The position numbers were made by a program, and so were the translations under genes. The notes under the pieces were generated by a model. The model searched no databases and was not told the DNA's origin. It saw only the letters and a list, made by a program, of their open reading frames with translations. A stretch of 64,000 nt of DNA, taken from the IMG/VR virus record IMGVR_UViG_2563366840_000001. The stretch is one strand, 5' to 3'. The stretch is from a virus (taxonomy: Duplodnaviria > Heunggongvirae > Uroviricota > Caudoviricetes). Below are positions 2,780 through 48,116 of this stretch, piece after piece. Every line of letters starts with the position of its first letter. The stretch's first letter is position 1.

Positions 2780-4699
2780 ATGGAACAGTTCAATATCAAT
2801 AAAGGGGTGACGATCAAGCCTGGGCTTGACGTGCTTCCCCCGCCAGTGACTGATGATGAATATCGCGCATTAATGGCCGGTGAGGACCGCTATCTGATGA
2901 CGGAATCCAACACCCTGGAGGAAATCGAGGCTACGTTCTTCTATGACACGCCGATCCACTGGTGTGCTACGGATTTACTGGAGGCGATTAGTTCTACTCG
3001 TTTGCAGTTACACCGGACCATGCAGGCATTTGTCCGGGCATTAAACCAGAAGCTGAATGGTACCGGAATCTCTGCGGGGAGTGATAAAACGGGGGATGTG
3101 GCCCAGAACGGTGCACGCGCGATCGGCGGGGCTGAAATTGGCCGGGCACGTAACGTTAACGGGCTGCCGGTCCTGCCAGCCATTATTCCGCTCAGTGATG
3201 GTCAGACTATCAGCATTCTGTTTCATAGCCCGACAGCGGAAAACCGGATCACCAATAGCGATACGCTGATTGCTTTCCAGTTCTTACTGAATAAAAAAGA
3301 CGTTACTCATACCGTTGCTCCGATGAGTGGACGTGATATGACGCTGGCGCAGGTCACCATGAAACTTGCCAACCTTGCAGAGAAAAACTCGGCAAAATTC
3401 CAGCGTGCGCAGAAGAAGAAAAAAGCCCTGGTTGATGAAATAACCCAACTACAGGCTGACAGTGACCAGAAAGAGGATGCCATGAGCGACCTCGCGGATC
3501 AGGTGGCAGCGGTAGAAGGGCAGAAGGTAGATCTGGAGCAGAAAATTAACGCTGTTGCATCGGAAGCGGATTCTCTTTATGAAGAGAATGAGCGTTTGCA
3601 GACGGAGATTGATCAGCTCAATCGAACTGGTGGGCGCGAAACCATTGCTCCTGCGGGGATGACTGGTGGACACTCTCGCGCGATGACGGATCGCCTTGCA
3701 AGTATCAAAAATCGTATGCATATGAACGGGGAAGTGACGCTCAGTAATGGTGCATCAATGAAGCAATTCATTGAGGACGGTGAAGGGTATATCCAGTTAA
3801 CCGATTCGGATGGCAGCGTGTACATGATCAAGGCTAAATCCATACAGGGTGTGGACATGGCAGATGCGATCGGCAAGCTGTTTAAAGCCTATAAAGCGGG
3901 TAATGTATCGGAATACCTGGTCCAACCAGAAGAACATAAACCGGAAAACGTCGAACCTGAACCAGCGGAGGATACCGGTAGCTCTTCGCCTGAACCAGAA
4001 GTCTCTGTAGGTGCATATCGATATGCCCTGCAAATGCGTCCGGCGGCCCCTGGCGCAATACCTGAAGGTAACAAAGCAATTCTGCCGCGCCCTGATGAAG
4101 GTGACCCGTATTATGAATATGCACGCTACGGCATTGCTACTTACGATACCCCGCTTTCTGATCAGCAAATGAGTGAGTACGACCTGAAGTTATTGCCTCG
4201 CGAGGATTCTTTCGACTTCTTGGCGAAGACACTTACTAATGGTCCGTTTGGCAAATATGCACAAAAAGCTCTGGAGCTGGCCACCAGCTCACCAGACGAG
4301 TTCCGCGTAATGCTGAAAACTCAGTTTCAAAAAACTTTCCCCAATATTGCGTATCCGGGGGGCGCTGGCACCGAAAAAATGGTGCAGAGCATGATCAATG
4401 CATTGCAGGCCGAAGTCGGTGAGATTACTCAGCCAGAACCTGCCCCGGCACAGCCTGATGAAACGGTTAGCGAAGCAGATGCAGAGGCTAATAAAGCCAT
4501 TGAATATCTCAATAACGTGATGGATATGCAAAGCACTGACATGGCGGAGATCCGTAACGCCCGGGGCAATGTCCGGGAAGCGATTGCAGCCCTTCAGGCT
4601 GCCGGGCGTTTTGAGGAAAACGAAGAGCTGGTTAATGGCGCTGCTCGCCACCTGGCTGATCTGCTGGTAGCAATCCAGAAAGCGGGGGTAGCGGCATGA
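2780..4699 (+). CDS. darA: DarA antirestriction capsid protein
   Basis: 639 aa, size and operon context as in P1 DarA; coiled-coil central region. Confidence 0.85.
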   Translation: MEQFNINKGVTIKPGLDVLPPPVTDDEYRALMAGEDRYLMTESNTLEEIEATFFYDTPIHWCATDLLEAISSTRLQLHRTMQAFVRALNQKLNGTGISAGSDKTGDVAQNGARAIGGAEIGRARNVNGLPVLPAIIPLSDGQTISILFHSPTAENRITNSDTLIAFQFLLNKKDVTHTVAPMSGRDMTLAQVTMKLANLAEKNSAKFQRAQKKKKALVDEITQLQADSDQKEDAMSDLADQVAAVEGQKVDLEQKINAVASEADSLYEENERLQTEIDQLNRTGGRETIAPAGMTGGHSRAMTDRLASIKNRMHMNGEVTLSNGASMKQFIEDGEGYIQLTDSDGSVYMIKAKSIQGVDMADAIGKLFKAYKAGNVSEYLVQPEEHKPENVEPEPAEDTGSSSPEPEVSVGAYRYALQMRPAAPGAIPEGNKAILPRPDEGDPYYEYARYGIATYDTPLSDQQMSEYDLKLLPREDSFDFLAKTLTNGPFGKYAQKALELATSSPDEFRVMLKTQFQKTFPNIAYPGGAGTEKMVQSMINALQAEVGEITQPEPAPAQPDETVSEADAEANKAIEYLNNVMDMQSTDMAEIRNARGNVREAIAALQAAGRFEENEELVNGAARHLADLLVAIQKAGVAA

Positions 4700-5061
4700 C
4701 ACTATCAGCTATTGAGTTAATGGATCTCAGCGATAAGTTGGATGCTCTGATGTCCAAAGCGGCTACCGCGAGTGGCATGGAGTTGCTGGATATCAGCGAT
4801 GAAATCGACCAGATCATGCAACAGATGGGGTACGGCGCGTCCGGCGGTGGTAGTGGCGAGGAAAAACAACCTTCGGAACATGATGGTGTGCCAAAACTGG
4901 TTGCTGATTTCCTGGCTGATAAATTCGTCGATCAGAGCACCGATGCATTTATCGGTACCTTGCAGGATTTGAGTCAATATGTTGGCACATACATCGACCT
5001 GGACCAGGTTAAACAGCACACGGCGGCATGGATAGCCGCCAACATTAAAGAGGCAGCATAA
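4696..5061 (+). CDS. ddrA: DdrA (Dar operon)
   Basis: 121-aa ORF overlapping the darA stop (ATGA coupling). Confidence 0.7.
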   Translation: MTLSAIELMDLSDKLDALMSKAATASGMELLDISDEIDQIMQQMGYGASGGGSGEEKQPSEHDGVPKLVADFLADKFVDQSTDAFIGTLQDLSQYVGTYIDLDQVKQHTAAWIAANIKEAA

Positions 5062-5073
5062 GGCGTAACAGGG

Positions 5074-8061
5074 ATGAGCTTAAGCGATCAGGTGGTAATG
5101 GCCACCAGCATAGAAACGCTGATCGAGCTGCTAAAGAACTTGCCCGATTATGGGCGGGTTTCGTATGTGGTGACAGCGAAGGGAGACGAGGTAAAAACAG
5201 CGTTTGATATCGTCGATGCCTCAGCTCTTTTGGTATCCAATACTCTGGATGGGAAAATTAATCCTGACTATCCCCAGGAACTTCAACCGCGCGACCGGAC
5301 CCGCGCATCCAGCCTTCTTCAGGTTAACCAGATATCCAAGGATTTGCGGCCTGCTCAGCTTACCGATTCCGGTCTATCCAGCCATGGCGCGCCGATAATT
5401 GGTGAGGACAATGCCGTTGAGTCAGGTAATGGACGGACCATGGGGATCATTAAAGCCTATCAGGACGGCAATGCGGATCGGTATCGTGAGTACCTGATTG
5501 ATCATGCGACCGAATTCGGCATACGACCTGAAAAGGTTGAATCAATGACGGCTCCGGTACTGGTGCGCCGCCGGTTAACTAAGGTTGACCGCGTTCAGTT
5601 TGCCAAGGACTCAAATATTTCTGATCTTCAGGAAATGGCAGCCAGTGAAAAGGCTTTTGTTGATGCCGACAGCATAACACCGGCGATGATGGCGCTTTTT
5701 AACCCGTCAGAAAGCGGAGATCTGCTTAGCCGCAGTAATGACACGTTTATTCGCGGATTTATGACGCAAGTTGGTGCCACACAGGCGGCTGGCCTTGTAA
5801 CTGAAGATGGGCGACCAACACGGCAACTTGTAGACCGTATACAAAACGCGATCTTTGCCAAGGCATATAAGGATGCGCGCCTGGTAAGGATGGTTGCAGA
5901 AGAACCTGATCCGGATATGCGTAATGTTCTGACGGCGCTTAATGCGGCAGCCAATGATTTTGTCCAGATGCAGGCTTTGTCAGGAGAAGCGCACAAGCAG
6001 GCTGTGACAACTATTGTTGATGGCATTGAGACAGCGGATAGCCTCGATAAAAAGGCGCTGGCGGCATTGAAAGATGCGGTAGACCTGGTAAGGCAATCGA
6101 AGGAGTCAGGCCAGCATATTACCGATGTTATTGCTCAGGGGGATATGTTCAGCGAAACGGCCCCGGAAGTGAAAGCACTCGCGTTGTTCATCGTCGCGAA
6201 TAACCGTAGCGCGAAGCGTATGGCCACCGCCTTTAAGTTGATGGCGCAACGTATCAATGATGAGTTACAGCACCAGGGCCAGGCGCTCGGGGATATGTTT
6301 GGCGGCGGCGATGTGTCGTTACAGGATATCCTTCGCCAGGTGTCTCAGGAACTGGAAAACGAAGGCATGCAAGGGATATCCGGCGGTCTTTTCGAGTCCG
6401 TTTCCGGCGGTAGTTACAACGGTGTTGCTCCATATACCAGCTTGCTATTACATCGGGCATCCGGCATCAAAGACATTATTCATCTGATCAGGCTGCTATC
6501 CCGCACCGATCCCCAGGATGAGCAGCTTGTACAAGTGCTTGCGCATTTTGTCCGAATGCCTGTTGCCGACGTAAAAAAATGGTGCCGATTATTCGGTATC
6601 AGCAATTCGTTACTTCGCGGATTGTTAAATCACGCATCCTCCCTTGGGCGCGACGGCTTTGATGAGATAGCGCAGGCGATAAAAAACGGAGATATGCCAC
6701 CAGCTATTGACTGGTTTTCCATTCGCCCAACCAGGGTGAAAGCATTCCTTAGCGCGGCGCATTCGGCATCACCATTGGCAGAAATGGTTCAGAGGTTGTC
6801 GCTCATATTCACAGACCATACCGCGTTGGGTGATCTGACTCTGGACGAGATGAAAGAAGCCTCCATTCAGTGGGCCGATCAACAAAATGAGGTTAACTCT
6901 GACTTCTTGCCAGCATTCAGGAAGGCCGTTAGTAAAGTGGATGATGCCCGTGGAATTCTGAAGGCATTTAAGGCATTGCAAAGTCGGGTTAATAAACATG
7001 TCGGTGATATCGATGGGGTAACGGCGGAAGGCAGGGATATCCTTAAAGAGCACGGCATAACGCCAGAGTTTATTGATGAGATCAGGACGGATATGCAGCG
7101 TGAGGTCGTATCGTCCCTGCAAATCGTAGCCAGAGCGTTGGCGGATGCTAATCCGAAGAGTGCGGCCATTGTTAACCGGGTTATTGGTGATATTGAAGCA
7201 TCGGAGGGCATGGGGGCGCTGAAACTCTTCCTTTCGCGAGCGTTTAATCCTAACGGCAATATTCTCCCCGGCATTATTTGTGAGGCTAAAAAGTATGTCA
7301 GCGAAGAAGAACTTGAGCATCTTGACCAACTACTTAAGCGATTCTCATATAACCCGCAGACACGCTGGCAAATGAATCAGCGAAGTATGGGTTCGGTCCA
7401 CGAGAAAGTGTTATCTGCCATGAACAGTGCGATCGCCAACTCATCCGTATCTGAAGAAAAAGCTCTTGAGTGGGCCGACTCTTTTATCACGGAAGAAGTG
7501 GAAGAAGCCCGCGCTGGACAGAATGGTGGGATAGACCTGCGCAAGGAACTTGCTGATATTTATCGCCTGACCGGCGGTAAAATTTCGACCTTATCAAAGG
7601 TGGTTCACCACCAGGGAAGGGCATATGCAAATCTAAATGGTGTTGTTGCTGTCAATTTGAACGATGAAAATGCAAGTGCACTGTGGCACGAGCTGGGTCA
7701 TCATCTTGAGTACAGTAACCCTGGTTTGTTAGAGAAAGCCCGGTCATTCCTGAAGGCCAATGTTGAAGGGGATAAGCCATCTTTCGTTAATATCGGTGGG
7801 CGTGGCAAGCCTGAATGGTGCTTCAGATCTCGATTGAGTAATATTTATATGGCGAAGGTATACCCGCCAGCCTCAGTAAGTAACACCGGGAAAATTCGGC
7901 AGAAATCACCGACTATTTCCAAAACGTCAGCAACGGAAGTATTCTCTATGGCTCTTCAGTTGTATCATGACAAAGAGGCCGCTGCCGCATCACTGATGAA
8001 TGGTGACGGATTGCTGGAACTGTTATTAGGTGTGGCAAAGGAGCTAAATAATGCAGATTAA
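5074..8061 (+). CDS. ddrB: DdrB, large Dar-operon capsid-associated protein
   Basis: 995-aa ORF following ddrA. Confidence 0.8.
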   Translation: MSLSDQVVMATSIETLIELLKNLPDYGRVSYVVTAKGDEVKTAFDIVDASALLVSNTLDGKINPDYPQELQPRDRTRASSLLQVNQISKDLRPAQLTDSGLSSHGAPIIGEDNAVESGNGRTMGIIKAYQDGNADRYREYLIDHATEFGIRPEKVESMTAPVLVRRRLTKVDRVQFAKDSNISDLQEMAASEKAFVDADSITPAMMALFNPSESGDLLSRSNDTFIRGFMTQVGATQAAGLVTEDGRPTRQLVDRIQNAIFAKAYKDARLVRMVAEEPDPDMRNVLTALNAAANDFVQMQALSGEAHKQAVTTIVDGIETADSLDKKALAALKDAVDLVRQSKESGQHITDVIAQGDMFSETAPEVKALALFIVANNRSAKRMATAFKLMAQRINDELQHQGQALGDMFGGGDVSLQDILRQVSQELENEGMQGISGGLFESVSGGSYNGVAPYTSLLLHRASGIKDIIHLIRLLSRTDPQDEQLVQVLAHFVRMPVADVKKWCRLFGISNSLLRGLLNHASSLGRDGFDEIAQAIKNGDMPPAIDWFSIRPTRVKAFLSAAHSASPLAEMVQRLSLIFTDHTALGDLTLDEMKEASIQWADQQNEVNSDFLPAFRKAVSKVDDARGILKAFKALQSRVNKHVGDIDGVTAEGRDILKEHGITPEFIDEIRTDMQREVVSSLQIVARALADANPKSAAIVNRVIGDIEASEGMGALKLFLSRAFNPNGNILPGIICEAKKYVSEEELEHLDQLLKRFSYNPQTRWQMNQRSMGSVHEKVLSAMNSAIANSSVSEEKALEWADSFITEEVEEARAGQNGGIDLRKELADIYRLTGGKISTLSKVVHHQGRAYANLNGVVAVNLNDENASALWHELGHHLEYSNPGLLEKARSFLKANVEGDKPSFVNIGGRGKPEWCFRSRLSNIYMAKVYPPASVSNTGKIRQKSPTISKTSATEVFSMALQLYHDKEAAAASLMNGDGLLELLLGVAKELNNAD

Positions 8062-8362
8062 AATCGCAGCGCCATTAGGCGGAGATGCCATTATCGAATT
8101 TGATGATAATGAAGAAGTTTCCGGGCGTTTAAGCATTATCTCCGGTGACATTACCGAGGACATGATCGCTGAAGCCATAGCTGGGGCAAATCCCAATAGC
8201 TATATGGGATTCGTTAACACCCTTGATGCTCCCGCAAGTGATGTTCTCCGAACGCTACATCTTTACGCTGGCTGGTTTGTTGATTGGCCAGCAGTAGATG
8301 GTGGCGATGAGGACGACGACGACGATGATTTTGGTGATCATGTAGACCAGATCGTATATTGA
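8051..8362 (+). CDS. Small highly acidic protein ending the Dar operon
   Basis: 103 aa, D/E-rich with a C-terminal DEDDDDDD run; overlaps the ddrB stop. Confidence 0.6.
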   Translation: MQIKIAAPLGGDAIIEFDDNEEVSGRLSIISGDITEDMIAEAIAGANPNSYMGFVNTLDAPASDVLRTLHLYAGWFVDWPAVDGGDEDDDDDDFGDHVDQIVY

Positions 8363-8365
8363 AGA

Positions 8366-8393
8366 AATCCCGCCAATCGGCGGGATTTTTTTT
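8366..8393. terminator. Rho-independent terminator (bidirectional) between convergent operons
   Basis: AATCCCGCC-aatc-GGCGGGATT stem followed by T8; A-run on the other side. Confidence 0.8.
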
Positions 8394-9180
8394 AATCGCT
8401 TTCCACTTCTTCCGTGGTGTTTTCTTGCAGTTCTGTTAATGCAGCACGACATAGGTTCCGGGCATTGGCTATAGCTACACTTTTGACTTCATCTGTCATC
8501 GTGCAGGTAATGTACTGATCGAGTTCTTCAGCGCGGATGATGCTTTTGCCAATCAGAAACTGTATTTGCCAGAGCAGATCGGCATCCATAATCAGAATTT
8601 CTGCCGGGCCTTCAGGGCCAGCCGGGAAGGAAACATAAGACTGTTTGCCCAGGCCGATAACTCGACAACTTGCTTCAAGAATTGCGCGATTGAGGTCTGA
8701 CTTTGTAACTGAAACAGGTTGATTTTCACCTGCGATTACGCCGTTGACATGGATGTGGAATGGCATGTAGCTTGAAATTCGCTCTACTTTCCATACGCCA
8801 GCAAGCGATCCTTCATGCAGCACAATGGGGGTAACCGCGAGTTTCATCTCACCATATAACTGCTGGCAGATGGCTGGATTGCTGAATACATCCAAAGGTT
8901 CACACTCAAACAGCGGCGCAATCTGCATGAGGTCCATCATGGTCATACCAGGGGTACGAGCAGTAATGAATCTGCGCATGCCAGTATCCATTGTGCGCCA
9001 GATAGCTACACCATGCTTTTTGCTCACTTCTTCAGTAAAGCCAAGGTGGCACATGATGGTTTTTTCGATAGCCAGATCAGAGATAGAAACCTTTTCGCCA
9101 GGTACACCATCATTATTGATGGCCACTTCGACACTCTGGCCATTACGCAGGCGGTATTGAATTGCTTTAGTATTTTCCAC
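8392..9180 (-). CDS. Hypothetical protein in the ssb operon
   Basis: 262-aa ORF directly downstream of the DUF2829 gene on the minus strand. Confidence 0.6.
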   Translation of the reverse strand: MENTKAIQYRLRNGQSVEVAINNDGVPGEKVSISDLAIEKTIMCHLGFTEEVSKKHGVAIWRTMDTGMRRFITARTPGMTMMDLMQIAPLFECEPLDVFSNPAICQQLYGEMKLAVTPIVLHEGSLAGVWKVERISSYMPFHIHVNGVIAGENQPVSVTKSDLNRAILEASCRVIGLGKQSYVSFPAGPEGPAEILIMDADLLWQIQFLIGKSIIRAEELDQYITCTMTDEVKSVAIANARNLCRAALTELQENTTEEVESD

Positions 9181-9186
9181 GTTAAA

Positions 9187-9864
9187 TCACTCCACTACAA
9201 ACCAGTCACATGCCAGTAAGTCGCCTACAGAAGGCACCCACGGAACAACTACACCTTGTGCATTTTTTAAGGCGAAATAAGCACCATACGGAACGAGGTC
9301 GCCGGGGAAATATCCCTTAATGGCTTCCATTCGTGCCGGGTACTGTCCTTCAGGAACCAGCCAGCAGAATTGGTTTTCGCCGTTCCACCCGCGTCGAGCA
9401 ACTTTCTTGCCATCCTTCAGCCACATCAGCGCGTCAGAAAAGTCGGCTGCTTCAAGGTCGATTTCTTCTTGTGTGGTAATGATGCCACTGGCAGCAATAG
9501 TTACGTCCCTGGCTGTAATGAATGTCACCCCATTGTGACCTTCAATACTGAGCGATACCCCATTTTCGAAGAAGTCGTTAGTCCGACTAAAGCCTTCTTC
9601 AAATGTTTTTTCTGGTGAATAGGACAGAGATCCGTCCTCATAAGCGACCAGATATCCGCCAATTTCTGGTCGGTGTTTTTGCAAAAACATTTTATCAACA
9701 TGGACTTTTACCCCTTCTGGCTCAACGACTTCGATGTTGCAAAAAAGGACCACATCCATTAGGGCGATAATTTCGATATCTTTGATTTTTGAGGCGCGAA
9801 CTGTTTTATGGCTTTTGTATTTTGGAAGTGCCGTCAAAAGCTCTTTCGTTGTCATGTTATTCAT
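9187..9864 (-). CDS. DUF2829 (Tad2-like) domain protein
   Basis: C-terminus ARRGWNGENQF...WVPSVGDLLACDWFVVE matches the DUF2829 signature; ATG at 9864 has an AGGAAAG SD; the track ORF extends to 10032 via a basic low-complexity N-terminus. Confidence 0.6.
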   Translation of the reverse strand: MNNMTTKELLTALPKYKSHKTVRASKIKDIEIIALMDVVLFCNIEVVEPEGVKVHVDKMFLQKHRPEIGGYLVAYEDGSLSYSPEKTFEEGFSRTNDFFENGVSLSIEGHNGVTFITARDVTIAASGIITTQEEIDLEAADFSDALMWLKDGKKVARRGWNGENQFCWLVPEGQYPARMEAIKGYFPGDLVPYGAYFALKNAQGVVVPWVPSVGDLLACDWFVVE

Positions 9865-10066
9865 AGTCTTTCCTCTGCTTAAAACCTGATGTATTGCGCC
9901 TTCAGGTGGGTCAGGAATGTTTTCCCACCAGCGAAAGCAATATCTCGGGGTGTTCTTTTCGTGAAAAGCGCGTGCCATTGCCAACTTTGGCGTTTTTTTG
10001 CGAGTTCGTGCTTTTGTCGGCGTCTTGACCACCGCTTTTCTTTCAGTCGTTTTTTACTCATAAACT

Positions 10067-10555
10067 CTAAAACGGAATATCGTCGTCAAAGTCCATTGGA
10101 GATTCGTTATTGGCGTTGCTCTGAGGTTTACCGCCACCACTGTATTGCTGGTGGTTTTGAGGTTGGTTTGATTGCCCCCAGCCATTTGAGGACTGTGAAT
10201 CGTCACGGCGAGCGCCGATCATTTGCATGGTGCCGCCCTGGCTGACGATAATTTCCGTCGTGTAACGTTCTACACCGGCGTCATCTGTCCACTTACGGGT
10301 TTTAAGTTTTCCTTCGATGTAGACCTGAGAACCTTTTCGTAAATACTCACTCGCAATTTCAGCAAGTTTCCCGAACAAAACGACTCTATGCCATTCTGTT
10401 TGCTCTTTCTGTTGGCCCGTTTGCTTGTCGCGCCATGATTCATTTGTTGCGATGCTTAGTCTTCCGACCGTTCCGCCATTTGGTATATACCTGATCTCCG
10501 GGTCTTGCCCCAGAGTACCAATCAGGATGACTTTGTTTACACCGCGTTGTGCCAC
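10067..10555 (-). CDS. ssb: Single-stranded DNA-binding protein
   Basis: [22 protein letters not shown]-fold N-terminus and acidic C-terminal tail DFDDDIPF; probable GTG start (track ORF starts at upstream TTG 10576). Confidence 0.93.
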
Positions 10556-10574
10556 TTTTCTTACCCAATAAAAC

Positions 10575-10591
10575 AAATTAATTAGAGCAAT
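10575..10591 (-). promoter_or_regulatory. C1 operator 17-mer (ATTGCTCTAATTAATTT on minus strand)
   Basis: 16/17 match to the P1 C1 operator consensus ATTGCTCTAATAAATTT; in the ssb/lyz divergent region. Confidence 0.7.
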
Positions 10592-10723
10592 AATGTATAT
10601 CTTTGAAACGTAGCTAACAAGTGATTTGCATTATCCTGTGTCTTCTAAAGGGATCGAGTCAGTCGGTATTGGCTGTGAATGGGTGTTTGTCCTGGAGCGT
10701 AAAAATTCGCTTATGAGGTCTTT

Positions 10724-11281
10724 ATGAAGGGAAAAACAGCCGCAGGAGGCGGTGCAATTTGCGCTATCGCGGTGATGATTACCATCGTAATGGGTAATGG
10801 CAATGTGCGAACCAACCAGGCGGGGCTTGAGCTGATTGGTAACGCTGAAGGTTGCCGACGTGATCCATACATGTGCCCGGCGGGGGTATGGACTGACGGG
10901 ATCGGTAATACACACGGGGTAACGCCGGGTGTGCGAAAAACCGACCAGCAAATCGCCGCTGATTGGGAAAAGAATATCCTGATCGCTGAACGCTGTATTA
11001 ATCAGCACTTCCGGGGCAAAGACATGCCCGATAATGCCTTTAGTGCAATGACAAGCGCGGCATTCAATATGGGATGCAATAGCTTACGGACCTACTACAG
11101 CAAAGCGCGAGGCATGCGAGTCGAAACGTCCATCCACAAGTGGGCGCAGAAAGGGGAATGGGTGAATATGTGTAACCATCTCCCTGATTTTGTGAACAGT
11201 AACGGCGTGCCCCTGCGAGGTTTAAAGATTCGCCGTGAAAAAGAACGCCAGCTTTGCCTGACGGGACTGGTCAATGAATAA
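10724..11281 (+). CDS. lyz: SAR endolysin (lysozyme)
   Basis: 185 aa; N-terminal signal-arrest-release hydrophobic segment GGGAICAIAVMITIVMG followed by a lysozyme domain; matches the recalled P1 Lyz sequence. Confidence 0.95.
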   Translation: MKGKTAAGGGAICAIAVMITIVMGNGNVRTNQAGLELIGNAEGCRRDPYMCPAGVWTDGIGNTHGVTPGVRKTDQQIAADWEKNILIAERCINQHFRGKDMPDNAFSAMTSAAFNMGCNSLRTYYSKARGMRVETSIHKWAQKGEWVNMCNHLPDFVNSNGVPLRGLKIRREKERQLCLTGLVNE

Positions 11282-30473: not shown

Positions 30474-30490
30474 AGAATTATTAGAGCAAT
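30474..30490 (-). promoter_or_regulatory. C1 operator (Op99-type)
   Basis: AGAATTATTAGAGCAAT, 14/17 to the reverse consensus. Confidence 0.6.
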
Positions 30491-30550
30491 AAATTTTGAG
30501 AGAAAAATCCCACTCCACCAGCCAAAAACTGGATTGTTTTTCATAGTTGT

Positions 30551-30577
30551 TTGACAATTGCTCTAATAAATTATAGT
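30551..30577 (+). promoter_or_regulatory. coi/c1 promoter overlapped by a C1 operator
   Basis: TTGACA followed by ATTGCTCTAATAAATTA (16/17) and TATAGT. Confidence 0.75.
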
Positions 30578-45600: not shown

Positions 45601-45617
45601 ATATTTATTAGAGCAAT
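45601..45617 (-). promoter_or_regulatory. C1 operator
   Basis: ATATTTATTAGAGCAAT, 16/17 to the reverse consensus. Confidence 0.7.
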
Positions 45618-47692: not shown

Positions 47693-47709
47693 ATTGCTCT
47701 AATAAAAAA
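47693..47709 (+). promoter_or_regulatory. C1 operator
   Basis: ATTGCTCTAATAAAAAA, 14/17. Confidence 0.6.
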
Positions 47710-47740
47710 CGTGATGAGTGTACATCACGTTTTAAAAATA

Positions 47741-47757
47741 TGGAATTATTAGAGCAA
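47741..47757 (-). promoter_or_regulatory. C1 operator (inverted partner)
   Basis: GGAATTATTAGAGCAAT, 14/17; with the site at 47693 flanks the palindrome ACGTGATGagtgtaCATCACGT. Confidence 0.6.
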
Positions 47758-48116
47758 TATTATTCTGATTCTTGCTCAAAAAACGAGCTAATAAGGGGAA
47801 GCCAATCCTCTGACACTTCGCGAGGTCGCGGTTTGCCGTGGAAAAAGATTATTCGGCAGTCTTTTGGTAATGCCCCATTCCCCCTGGAGTAACGCGCGCT
47901 CGCATATTTCGAACCAGGTTCCACAACATCGGCCTTGTAACTTACAAACCATCCCGGATACAGATCCTGAAATGCTGGTGTATCATCACCCATAACCTTC
48001 CGCAAAAACCCCTGATCACCCCAGCATTCAGTAGTAACACAACGAGCAACCCAACCTTCCGGATCTTGCCAGAATGAACCGCCCCGGGTTTCCTGGAGAG
48101 TGTTTTATCTGTGAAC

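What the first reader, a model, noticed from the sequence alone, without database searches (positions are those of the whole stretch)
9187..10032. DUF2829 (Tad2-like) domain protein co-transcribed with ssb
The C-terminal segment ARRGWNGENQF...WVPSVGDLLACDWFVVE carries the DUF2829 signature, the family that includes the Thoeris anti-defence protein Tad2. Here it is fused to a larger N-terminal region of unknown function and sits under a C1 operator, so it would be expressed early on induction. It is a candidate immune-signal sponge.
Basis: partly seen in the sequence, partly recalled or inferred. Interest (0 to 1): 0.6.

Follow-up and report, generated by a model that had tools for sequence, protein, structure and literature searches.

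The report
Two-domain Tad2-like sponge in P1-like phage
A P1-like phage carries, just after its ssb gene, a gene for a protein that joins a small barrel domain related to a capsid-decoration protein to a Tad2 domain, the kind phages use to soak up bacterial alarm molecules; the Tad2 part is already annotated in databases, but this two-part form has never been tested.

Summary

The ORF is drawn too long. Its first 56 codons carry in-frame stops in 11 of 24 related leader variants. P1 has the same leader joined directly to isaA. The true gene is 9187..9864 (-), 225 aa.

It is the third cistron of the ssb operon, which has a C1 operator at 10575..10591. It is a cassette present in 24 of 59 related IMG/VR loci and absent from P1 itself.

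The protein has three parts:
- an OB-fold related to the phage L Dec decoration protein (aa 12-96);
- a variable linker;
- a Tad2 domain that keeps the ligand-pocket residues W160, N161, W209, S212 and D215.

The most likely function is an early-expressed sponge for TIR-derived ADP-ribose signals. His-ADPR, 3'cADPR or N7-cADPR are candidates, and possibly cyclic mononucleotides. This is inferred and untested.

Tad2 in P1/D6 phage-plasmids has already been reported from DefenseFinder scans, and NCBI annotates the gene as DUF2829, so the core call is not new.

The lead worth following is the OB domain. It has 2,688 clusters and no Pfam model. Among its best 149 relatives it recurs fused to Sequestin, Tad2, Acb4 and an Acb2/Tad1 domain. 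That suggests a further anti-signalling module.

The parts
10575..10591 (-). C1 repressor operator (equivalent of P1 Op21/Ossb) at the ssb promoter
   Evidence: ATTGCTCTAATTAATTT has one mismatch to the C1 consensus. The window holds 11 such sites against 0.32 expected. The position corresponds to the annotated Ossb of P1.
10067..10555 (-). ssb, first cistron of the operon (GTG start, 162 aa)
   Evidence: Pfam PF00436 SSB at 7.7e-40. It is the same length as P1 ssb, 489 nt. The start was read from the sequence.
9879..10061 (-). Conserved unannotated 60-aa basic ORF (MSKKRLKEKRW...) between ssb and the Tad2-like gene.
   Evidence: The ORF is open in 23 of 24 distinct leader variants, whereas the GTG frame carries stops in 11 of 24. 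It has no Pfam, NCBIfam or PHROG match. Whether it is translated is not shown.
9868..9876 (-). Ribosome-binding site (AGAGGAAAG) of the Tad2-like gene
   Evidence: Read from the sequence. It is conserved, as GAGGAAAG or GAGAAAAG, before both the Tad2-like gene and, in P1-type loci, isaA.
9187..9864 (-). True CDS of the two-domain Tad2-like protein (225 aa plus stop)
   Evidence: It is 99% identical to P0001 and 97% to P0002, which NCBI names 'DUF2829 domain-containing protein' at 225 aa. PHROG 872 covers the full length at 4.9e-60. dN/dS is 0.43-0.50 in all three regions.
9577..9831 (-). N-terminal Dec-like OB-fold domain (aa 12-96)
9457..9576 (-). Variable linker (aa 97-136)
   Evidence: pLDDT is below 50. 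It has the highest column entropy, 2.02 bits. It carries a recombination block of 11 substitutions between otherwise identical alleles. It weakly resembles the Dec stalk sequence.
9190..9456 (-). C-terminal Tad2 (PF11195/DUF2829) domain (aa 137-225)
8392..9180 (-). isaA-like gene, last cistron (262 aa), function unknown
   Evidence: It is 95% identical to residues 60-320 of P1 IsaA. PHROG 2326 at 1.7e-150, function unknown. It lies directly downstream of the Tad2-like gene in both P1-like and D6 phages.
8367..8390 (.). Stem-loop between the convergent isaA-like and hxr genes, a probable bidirectional terminator
   Evidence: It has a 10-bp GC-rich stem, -17.1 kcal/mol, z -3.9 against shuffles. 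A run of T follows on the plus strand.

Best explanation
The feature is a 225-aa accessory protein of a P1-like phage-plasmid. It is encoded as the third cistron of the C1-repressed operon ssb - orf60 - tad2-like - isaA.

Its C-terminal 89 residues form a Tad2-family domain of the ModTad2 clade. The proposed mechanism runs as follows:
1. When C1 repression is absent, on infection or induction, the operon is transcribed early.
2. The Tad2 domains assemble into tetramers.
3. Inter-subunit pockets lined by W160/N161 and W209/S212/D215 sequester ADP-ribose-derived signals made by host TIR proteins. Candidates are His-ADPR, 3'cADPR or N7-cADPR.
4. A second pocket, shaped by the hypervariable beta2-beta5 insertion, may bind cyclic mononucleotides.
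5. Thoeris, and perhaps Pycsar, effectors are then not switched on.

The N-terminal Dec-like OB-fold is an added module of unknown role. It could be a second ligand-binding unit or a scaffold.

Shown here: domain identity, fold, conservation of pocket residues, operon anatomy, the operator, the cassette-like distribution and purifying selection. Inferred: oligomeric state, ligand identity, timing of expression and any anti-defence effect.
For: - Sequence: Pfam PF11195 at E 2.4e-22. phmmer to ModTad2 gives about 8e-21, against 1e-9 for SPO1 Tad2.
- Pocket: the residues that bind gcADPR in SPO1 Tad2 (W25, N26, W73, S76, D79) and in HgmTad2 (W21/N22, W87, S90, D93) align with W160, N161, W209, S212 and D215. 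Four of these are invariant across 37 homologues, and N161 varies between N and K.
- Precedent: ModTad2 binds His-ADPR and cUMP/cCMP, and other Tad2 proteins block type I, II and IV Thoeris.
- Operon: a C1 operator lies upstream of ssb. No minus-strand terminator lies between ssb and the gene. A terminator hairpin follows isaA.
- Accessory character: the gene is present in 24 of 59 related loci and in 229 PLSDB plasmids. Domains recombine between alleles (L059). One allele is broken by an IS.
- Selection: dN/dS is about 0.43-0.50, so the gene is kept under selection.
- Fusions: fusions of Tad2 to other sponges are known and functional.
Against: - No binding or phenotype data exist for this architecture. 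Hadary et al. removed proteins with a 6E3C-like domain from their tested Tad2 set.
- Characterised Tad2 sponges are stand-alone proteins of about 90 aa that form tetramers. Whether a 136-aa N-terminal extension, attached to the helix that mediates tetramerisation, is compatible with that assembly could not be tested here.
- Peripheral pocket residues differ from SPO1 Tad2 (I63L, T65N, D67Q, H71V, T78G), so the ligand cannot be read from the sequence.
- About a quarter of sponge homologues tested by Hadary et al. inhibited none of seven systems.
- Reference phage P1 lacks the gene, so it is dispensable for the phage.
Confidence: 0.62

Rival explanations
1. Dual sponge. The N-terminal Dec-like OB domain is itself a signal-binding or otherwise anti-signalling module. 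The protein would then neutralise two kinds of immune signal, like the known Acb4-Tad2 and Sequestin-Tad2 fusions. This extends the best explanation rather than excluding it.
For: - Among the best 149 of 2,688 OB-domain cluster representatives, 18 of the 20 members with any Pfam partner carry a sponge domain: PF21825 Sequestin (7), PF11195 Tad2 (6), PF13876 Acb4 (4) and PF24729 Acb2/Tad1 hairpin (1). The domain boundaries of four of these proteins were confirmed. They include an OB + Acb4 + Sequestin triple fusion (P0283).
- Domain order varies, with Tad2 before OB in P0273. That fits independent modules.
- Many family members are stand-alone proteins of 80-110 aa, the typical size of a sponge.
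- Conserved aromatic and basic residues (H19, K20, H64, Y71, Y75, Y79, F88, Y92) would suit a nucleotide pocket.
- Fusion to Tad2 or Acb4 is how Sequestin was discovered.
- Hadary et al. filtered out 6E3C-like domains alongside the known sponge PF21825.
Against: - The only characterised relative, Dec, binds capsids.
- Stand-alone homologues sit next to the major capsid protein gene in Pantoea PdC23 and between the portal and capsid genes in Ralstonia GP4.
- No oligomer or pocket was modelled here.
- The search was seeded from a Tad2 fusion, which may inflate the Tad2 count, though not the other three families.
Confidence: 0.3
2. Virion-associated protein. The Dec-like OB-fold and stalk-like linker bind the P1-type capsid as trimers and display, or carry, the DUF2829 domain. 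The primary role would then be structural, adhesive or delivery-related rather than cytoplasmic sequestration.
For: - The OB domain is homologous to Dec.
- Homologues are annotated as decoration proteins, and some lie in head-gene modules.
- The linker loosely resembles the Dec stalk, and its low monomer pLDDT would fit a segment that folds only in an oligomer.
- The neighbouring P1 genes ddrB and darB belong to a system whose proteins are packaged in the head (annotation, plus established knowledge of P1 Dar).
Against: - The gene lies in an early, C1-controlled operon with ssb, not in a late operon.
- The Dec capsid-contact residues K30, Y31, Y71 and E73 are not conserved here; they are E31, I32, D77 and S79.
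- P1 itself and 35 of 59 relatives lack the gene.
- The same OB domain is fused to four cytoplasmic sponge families, in either order.
- A few capsid-bound copies would make a poor sponge.
Confidence: 0.1
3. Binder of a housekeeping nucleotide or anti-CRISPR. The DUF2829 domain would sequester a host second messenger such as c-di-GMP, as HgmTad2 does, to alter host physiology. Alternatively it would act as an AcrIIA7-type Cas9 inhibitor.
For: - HgmTad2, also called AcrIIA7, binds c-di-GMP very tightly, and the domain is 40% identical to it.
- DefenseFinder labels the family 'Tad2 AcrIIA7'.
Against: - Dinucleotide binding in HgmTad2 and SptTad2 needs a long beta2-beta5 insertion of 35-41 residues. 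This protein's insertion is 17 residues shorter than that of HgmTad2 and resembles that of ModTad2.
- Li et al. could not reproduce any Cas9 inhibition by HgmTad2.
- Type II CRISPR-Cas is not a feature of the E. coli and Salmonella hosts (general knowledge).
Confidence: 0.05

Closest known systems
ModTad2 (Myroides odoratus prophage Tad2; PDB 9EIB, 8V3E)
   Different: ModTad2 is a stand-alone 89-aa protein. It has been shown experimentally to bind His-ADPR and cUMP/cCMP and to block type II Thoeris and Pycsar. The window protein carries 136 extra N-terminal residues and is untested.
SPO1 Tad2 (Gp34.65; PDB 8SME-8SMG), founding member of PF11195
   Same: Same fold and family. Core ligand contacts W25, N26, W73, S76 and D79 are conserved.
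   Different: The sequence match is weaker (phmmer 1e-9 against about 8e-21 for ModTad2). Peripheral contacts I63, T65, D67, H71 and T78 are replaced. It is stand-alone, from a Bacillus phage, and binds 3'cADPR/2'cADPR.
Sponge-sponge fusion proteins (Acb4-Tad2 of Pasteurella phage Pm86; Tad2-Sequestin, PF21825)
   Same: A Tad2 domain joined by a linker to a second small phage domain. Close alleles of this same Tad2 domain (about 80% identical) are fused to PF21825 in other enterobacterial elements, for example P0063.
   Different: Here the partner is a Dec-like OB-fold with no Pfam model and no demonstrated ligand.
Phage L Dec capsid decoration protein (PDB 6E3C)
   Different: Dec ends in a trimeric beta-helix stalk of the tail-fibre repeat type. 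It is expressed with the late genes and binds P22-like capsids through K30, Y31 and Y49, which are not conserved here. The window protein ends in a Tad2 domain and is encoded in an early operon.
P1 IsaA (YP_006486) and D6 orf114/orf113
   Same: Same locus. P1 has the same leader followed directly by isaA. D6 has a DUF2829 gene directly upstream of isaA.
   Different: P1 lacks the Tad2-like gene altogether. The D6 protein is 146 aa, lacks the OB domain and follows a separate dUTPase gene.

Membership tests
Tad2 / DUF2829 (PF11195) sponge family | Significant match to the PF11195 profile over its full length | tested here: met
   E 2.4e-22, 79.7 bits against a gathering score of 25, profile positions 2-73 of 73.
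Tad2 / DUF2829 (PF11195) sponge family | [quoted passage not shown] | tested here: met
Tad2 / DUF2829 (PF11195) sponge family | Conserved residues of the ADPR-signal pocket (SPO1 W25, N26, W73, S76, D79; HgmTad2 W21, N22, W87, S90, D93) | tested here: met
   W160, N161, W209, S212 and D215 align with these residues. W160, W209, S212 and D215 are invariant in 37 homologues, and N161 is N or K. Peripheral contacts differ.
Tad2 / DUF2829 (PF11195) sponge family | Homotetramer with pockets at protomer interfaces | not testable with these tools
   Only monomer prediction was available. It needs AlphaFold-Multimer or SEC-MALS.
Tad2 / DUF2829 (PF11195) sponge family | Binds an immune signal and relieves Thoeris, Pycsar or CBASS defence | not testable with these tools
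   This is experimental. Proteins with a 6E3C-like extra domain were excluded from the published screen.
Tad2 / DUF2829 (PF11195) sponge family | Short stand-alone protein of about 90-105 aa | tested here: not met
   The protein is 225 aa with two domains. This is a typical trait of characterised members, not a requirement. Functional Tad2 fusions exist.
Dec-type OB-fold decoration proteins (phage L Dec, 6E3C) | OB-fold homologous to the Dec N-terminal domain | tested here: met
Dec-type OB-fold decoration proteins (phage L Dec, 6E3C) | C-terminal trimeric beta-helix stalk | tested here: inconclusive
   The linker (aa 97-136) has pLDDT below 50 and only a loose resemblance to the Dec stalk. No multimer model was made.
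Dec-type OB-fold decoration proteins (phage L Dec, 6E3C) | Capsid-contact residues (Dec K30, Y31, Y49, Y71, E73) | tested here: not met
   The aligned positions are E31, I32, D77 and S79, and Y49 falls in an unalignable loop. Contacts could differ for another capsid, so this is weak evidence.
Dec-type OB-fold decoration proteins (phage L Dec, 6E3C) | Encoded and expressed with the late or head genes, and present on virions | tested here: not met
   The gene lies in the C1-controlled early ssb operon. Presence on virions is not testable here.
AcrIIA7 anti-CRISPR | Inhibits Cas9 | not testable with these tools
   Li et al. could not reproduce Cas9 inhibition by HgmTad2/AcrIIA7. This reading is not pursued.

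The most novel reading that the evidence does not exclude
The N-terminal Dec-like OB-fold is not a passive appendage. It would be a member of a large, unnamed family of phage modules (at least 2,688 clusters at 50% identity, no Pfam model) that act against nucleotide-based immune signalling. It could be a new sponge, or a module that localises or potentiates sponges. The P1-like protein would then be a two-headed inhibitor.

The basis is guilt by fusion. In the best 149 relatives, nearly every identifiable fusion partner belongs to one of four unrelated sponge families: Sequestin, Tad2, Acb4 and Acb2/Tad1.
Probability: 0.3. Interest if true: 0.75.

Novelty: new variant of a known kind. Interest (0 to 1): 0.45.

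Why it matters
P1-like phage-plasmids are common in clinical E. coli, Shigella and Salmonella and are the classic transducing phages. An early-expressed signal sponge would help explain how they establish themselves in hosts that carry Thoeris or Pycsar. The natural presence/absence polymorphism (P1 lacks the gene, SJ46-type phages have it) gives a ready-made isogenic test.

Tad2 itself is well understood, so the main call adds little. The more useful lead is the OB-fold partner. If it proves to be another signal-binding module, it would add a large family to the known sponges. Such proteins have repeatedly served as tools to capture and identify new immune signals.

Tried and rejected
- **The 281-aa ORF from GTG 10032.** Rejected because that frame carries stops in 11 of 24 related leaders, while the other frame's 60-aa ORF stays open in 23 of 24. 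P1 joins the same leader to isaA.
- **IsaB of P1 as the counterpart of the downstream gene.** No similarity. The counterpart is IsaA.
- **NCBIfam.** No match for any of the four local proteins.
- **Rfam on 8000-10800.** Only sub-threshold hits on the terminator hairpin.
- **Sigma-70 promoter scan.** No internal promoter-like sites, and no minus-strand terminator inside the operon. The scan also missed the obvious hairpin at 8367-8390, which I confirmed by folding.
- **Word-indexed homologue search with the N-domain alone.** It returned only the close P1/D6 family.
- **IsaA-like protein.** The alignment was shallow, the AlphaFold2 mean pLDDT was 53, and Foldseek against the PDB gave nothing below E 0.2. 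No inference was drawn.
- **Pfam scan of genes next to stand-alone OB homologues.** No sponge domains were found.
- **Supplementary tables of Hadary et al.** These list the tested Tad2 proteins but are not held in the library. I could not check whether a close relative of the isolated domain was assayed.

Full report
**What the window is.** The region is 96-97% identical to Salmonella phage SJ46, phage P1 and other punaviruses. The local gene order matches P1: ddrB, hxr, then on the other strand isaA and ssb, then lyz.

**Checking the observation.** The ORF 9187..10032 (-) exists. Its C-terminus matches Pfam PF11195 'Tad2-like' at E 2.4e-22 over the whole profile. It also matches every solved Tad2 structure, best ModTad2 at about 8e-21. 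The signature is real.

The 5' end is not. In P1 the annotated IsaA (320 aa) consists of the same 56-residue leader followed by the homologue of the window's next gene, 8392..9180 (95% identity). The leader is therefore shared by two unrelated downstream genes.

I fetched 59 related loci from IMG/VR using the leader and translated both frames.
- The other frame, a 60-aa basic ORF that starts right after the ssb stop and ends 14 nt before the next ATG, is open in 23 of 24.

A good ribosome-binding site precedes the ATG at 9864, and NCBI annotates homologues at 225 aa. The real gene is 9187..9864.

**Operon and regulation.** A C1 operator with one mismatch lies at 10575..10591 (-), where P1 has Op21/Ossb. 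No terminator-like site lies on the minus strand between ssb and the end of isaA. A strong hairpin follows at 8367-8390 (-17.1 kcal/mol). The unit is ssb - orf60 - tad2-like - isaA. Co-transcription and early timing are inferred from this anatomy and from the P1 annotation. They were not measured.

**Distribution.**
- 24 of the 59 loci carry the gene at exactly this place, and 35, like P1, go straight from the leader to isaA.
- 229 PLSDB plasmids carry it, annotated 'DUF2829 domain-containing protein'.
- In D6 a shorter DUF2829 gene also sits directly upstream of isaA, after a dUTPase gene.
- One allele is interrupted by an IS3-family element.
- Alleles are mosaic. L059 has a diverged N-domain but a nearly identical Tad2 domain, and a block of 11 substitutions is confined to the linker in otherwise identical alleles.
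- dN/dS is 0.43-0.50 in all three regions. That indicates purifying but fairly relaxed selection, as expected for an accessory gene.

The Dec relationship is backed by a shared sequence motif and by tblastn hits to phage proteins annotated 'Dec protein' or 'capsid decoration protein'. Stand-alone homologues of 80-95 aa lie in three kinds of place:
- next to the major capsid gene in Pantoea PdC23;
- between the portal and capsid genes in Ralstonia GP4;
- at the late end of a lambdoid genome, after the lysis genes and a Rha-like regulator, in Bas106.

Klebsiella phage SopranoGao has an OB-Tad2 fusion in an early-looking region next to transcriptional regulator genes.

**Is the Tad2 domain likely to work?** The residues that hold gcADPR in SPO1 Tad2 (W25, N26, W73, S76, D79) and in HgmTad2 align with W160, N161, W209, S212 and D215. 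Four of them are invariant in the family alignment. Peripheral contacts differ, so the exact ligand cannot be read off.

The closest characterised relative, ModTad2, binds His-ADPR in this pocket and cUMP/cCMP at a second interface. Other Tad2 proteins bind 3'cADPR or N7-cADPR. The beta2-beta5 insertion forms the dinucleotide pocket in HgmTad2. Here it has ModTad2-like length and is the most variable part of the domain among alleles, with 29 to 52 residues between the two Trp anchors. That would fit diversifying ligand specificity, but this is inference.

**What is already known.** A 2025 preprint that screened phage-plasmids with DefenseFinder reports 'Tad2 AcrIIA7' in 56% of P1 and 93% of D6 elements. 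UniRef already names a homologue 'Thoeris anti-defense Tad2 family protein'. I found no experimental test of this protein. Hadary et al. state that Tad1, Tad2 and Acb2 homologues that also contain PF21825 or a 6E3C-like domain were removed before their functional survey.

**The N-domain lead.** An exhaustive phmmer search with aa 1-100 found 2,688 cluster representatives at E <= 1e-3. Pfam has no model for the domain. I scanned the best 149 against Pfam. Only 20 had any other domain, and 18 of those were sponge families:
- Sequestin PF21825: 7
- Tad2: 6
- Acb4 PF13876: 4
- Acb2/Tad1 hairpin: 1

Domain boundaries were confirmed for OB+Acb4 (P0159, P0217), OB+Acb2/Tad1 (P0219) and OB+Acb4+Sequestin (P0283). 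Domain order is not fixed. Tal et al. discovered Sequestin from exactly this kind of fusion pattern. This makes the OB domain a candidate anti-signalling module.

The counter-evidence is that its one characterised relative binds capsids, and that some stand-alone members sit among head genes. I rate the 'second active module' reading at about 0.3 and the 'capsid-bound' reading at about 0.1. The remainder covers a passive scaffold or oligomerisation role.

**Verdict.** It is a known family in an uncharacterised two-domain form. Interest is moderate, mainly because of the OB-domain fusion pattern.

Noticed in passing
window 9577..9831 (-); proteins P0147-P0294: The Dec-like OB domain belongs to a very large family with no Pfam model, 2,688 representatives at E <= 1e-3. 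Its identifiable fusion partners are almost only immune-signal sponge domains: Sequestin, Tad2, Acb4 and Acb2/Tad1. One protein, P0283, is a triple OB + Acb4 + Sequestin fusion.
   Followed up: partly
window 9879..10061 (-): A conserved, very basic 60-aa ORF (MSKKRLKEKRWSRRRQKHELAKKRQSWQW...) fills the gap between ssb and the next gene. It is open in 23 of 24 related variants and is not annotated in P1 or SJ46. It has no family match, and translation is not shown.
   Followed up: partly
L002 4001..4963 (P1 isaA, YP_006486): The P1 reference annotation of IsaA (320 aa) appears over-extended by the same 56 non-coding-frame codons. The likely start is MTAQNTK..., after the shared ribosome-binding site, giving about 264 aa.
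   Followed up: yes
window 8392..9180 (-): The isaA-like gene belongs to a narrow family seen only in P1/D6-type elements. It always lies directly downstream of the Tad2-like gene when that gene is present. There is no Pfam or NCBIfam match, the AlphaFold2 model is poor (pLDDT 53), and no fold match was found.
   Followed up: partly
L009 about 3780..5045 (IMGVR_UViG_2695420521_000002): An IS3-family element (orfA 108 aa, orfB 295 aa) is inserted inside the Tad2 domain after ...PGDLVPYG. This is a naturally inactivated allele. Phage RCS47 also annotates the gene as 'part 1'.
   Followed up: partly
window 9274..9351 (-), aa 172-197 of the 225-aa protein: The beta2-beta5 insertion of the Tad2 domain is hypervariable among close alleles. 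At least three length classes (35, 44 and 52 residues between the Trp anchors) occur in P1-like elements, while the flanking core is nearly invariant.
   Followed up: partly
proteins P0056, P0023, P0063, P0057; L068 3550..4499: Nearly identical copies of this Tad2 domain occur fused to a dUTPase, to a tail-fibre repeat followed by the OB domain, to Sequestin, and to the OB domain followed by a second small barrel domain. In D6 the dUTPase and DUF2829 genes are adjacent but separate. The conserved segment EEIDLEAADFSDALMWLK marks the junction.
   Followed up: partly
related loci L003-L061, between isaA and hxr (window about 8363..8391): The spacer between the convergent isaA and hxr genes ranges from about 30 bp, as here, to about 1.8 kb in relatives. 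P1 has IS1 and isaB there. It is a second variable spot next to the cassette.
   Followed up: no
window-wide, e.g. 30474..30573, 45601..45617, 47693..47758: Eleven C1-operator-like sites (3 mismatches or fewer) occur in the window, against 0.32 expected. This is consistent with a P1-type immunity network.
   Followed up: no
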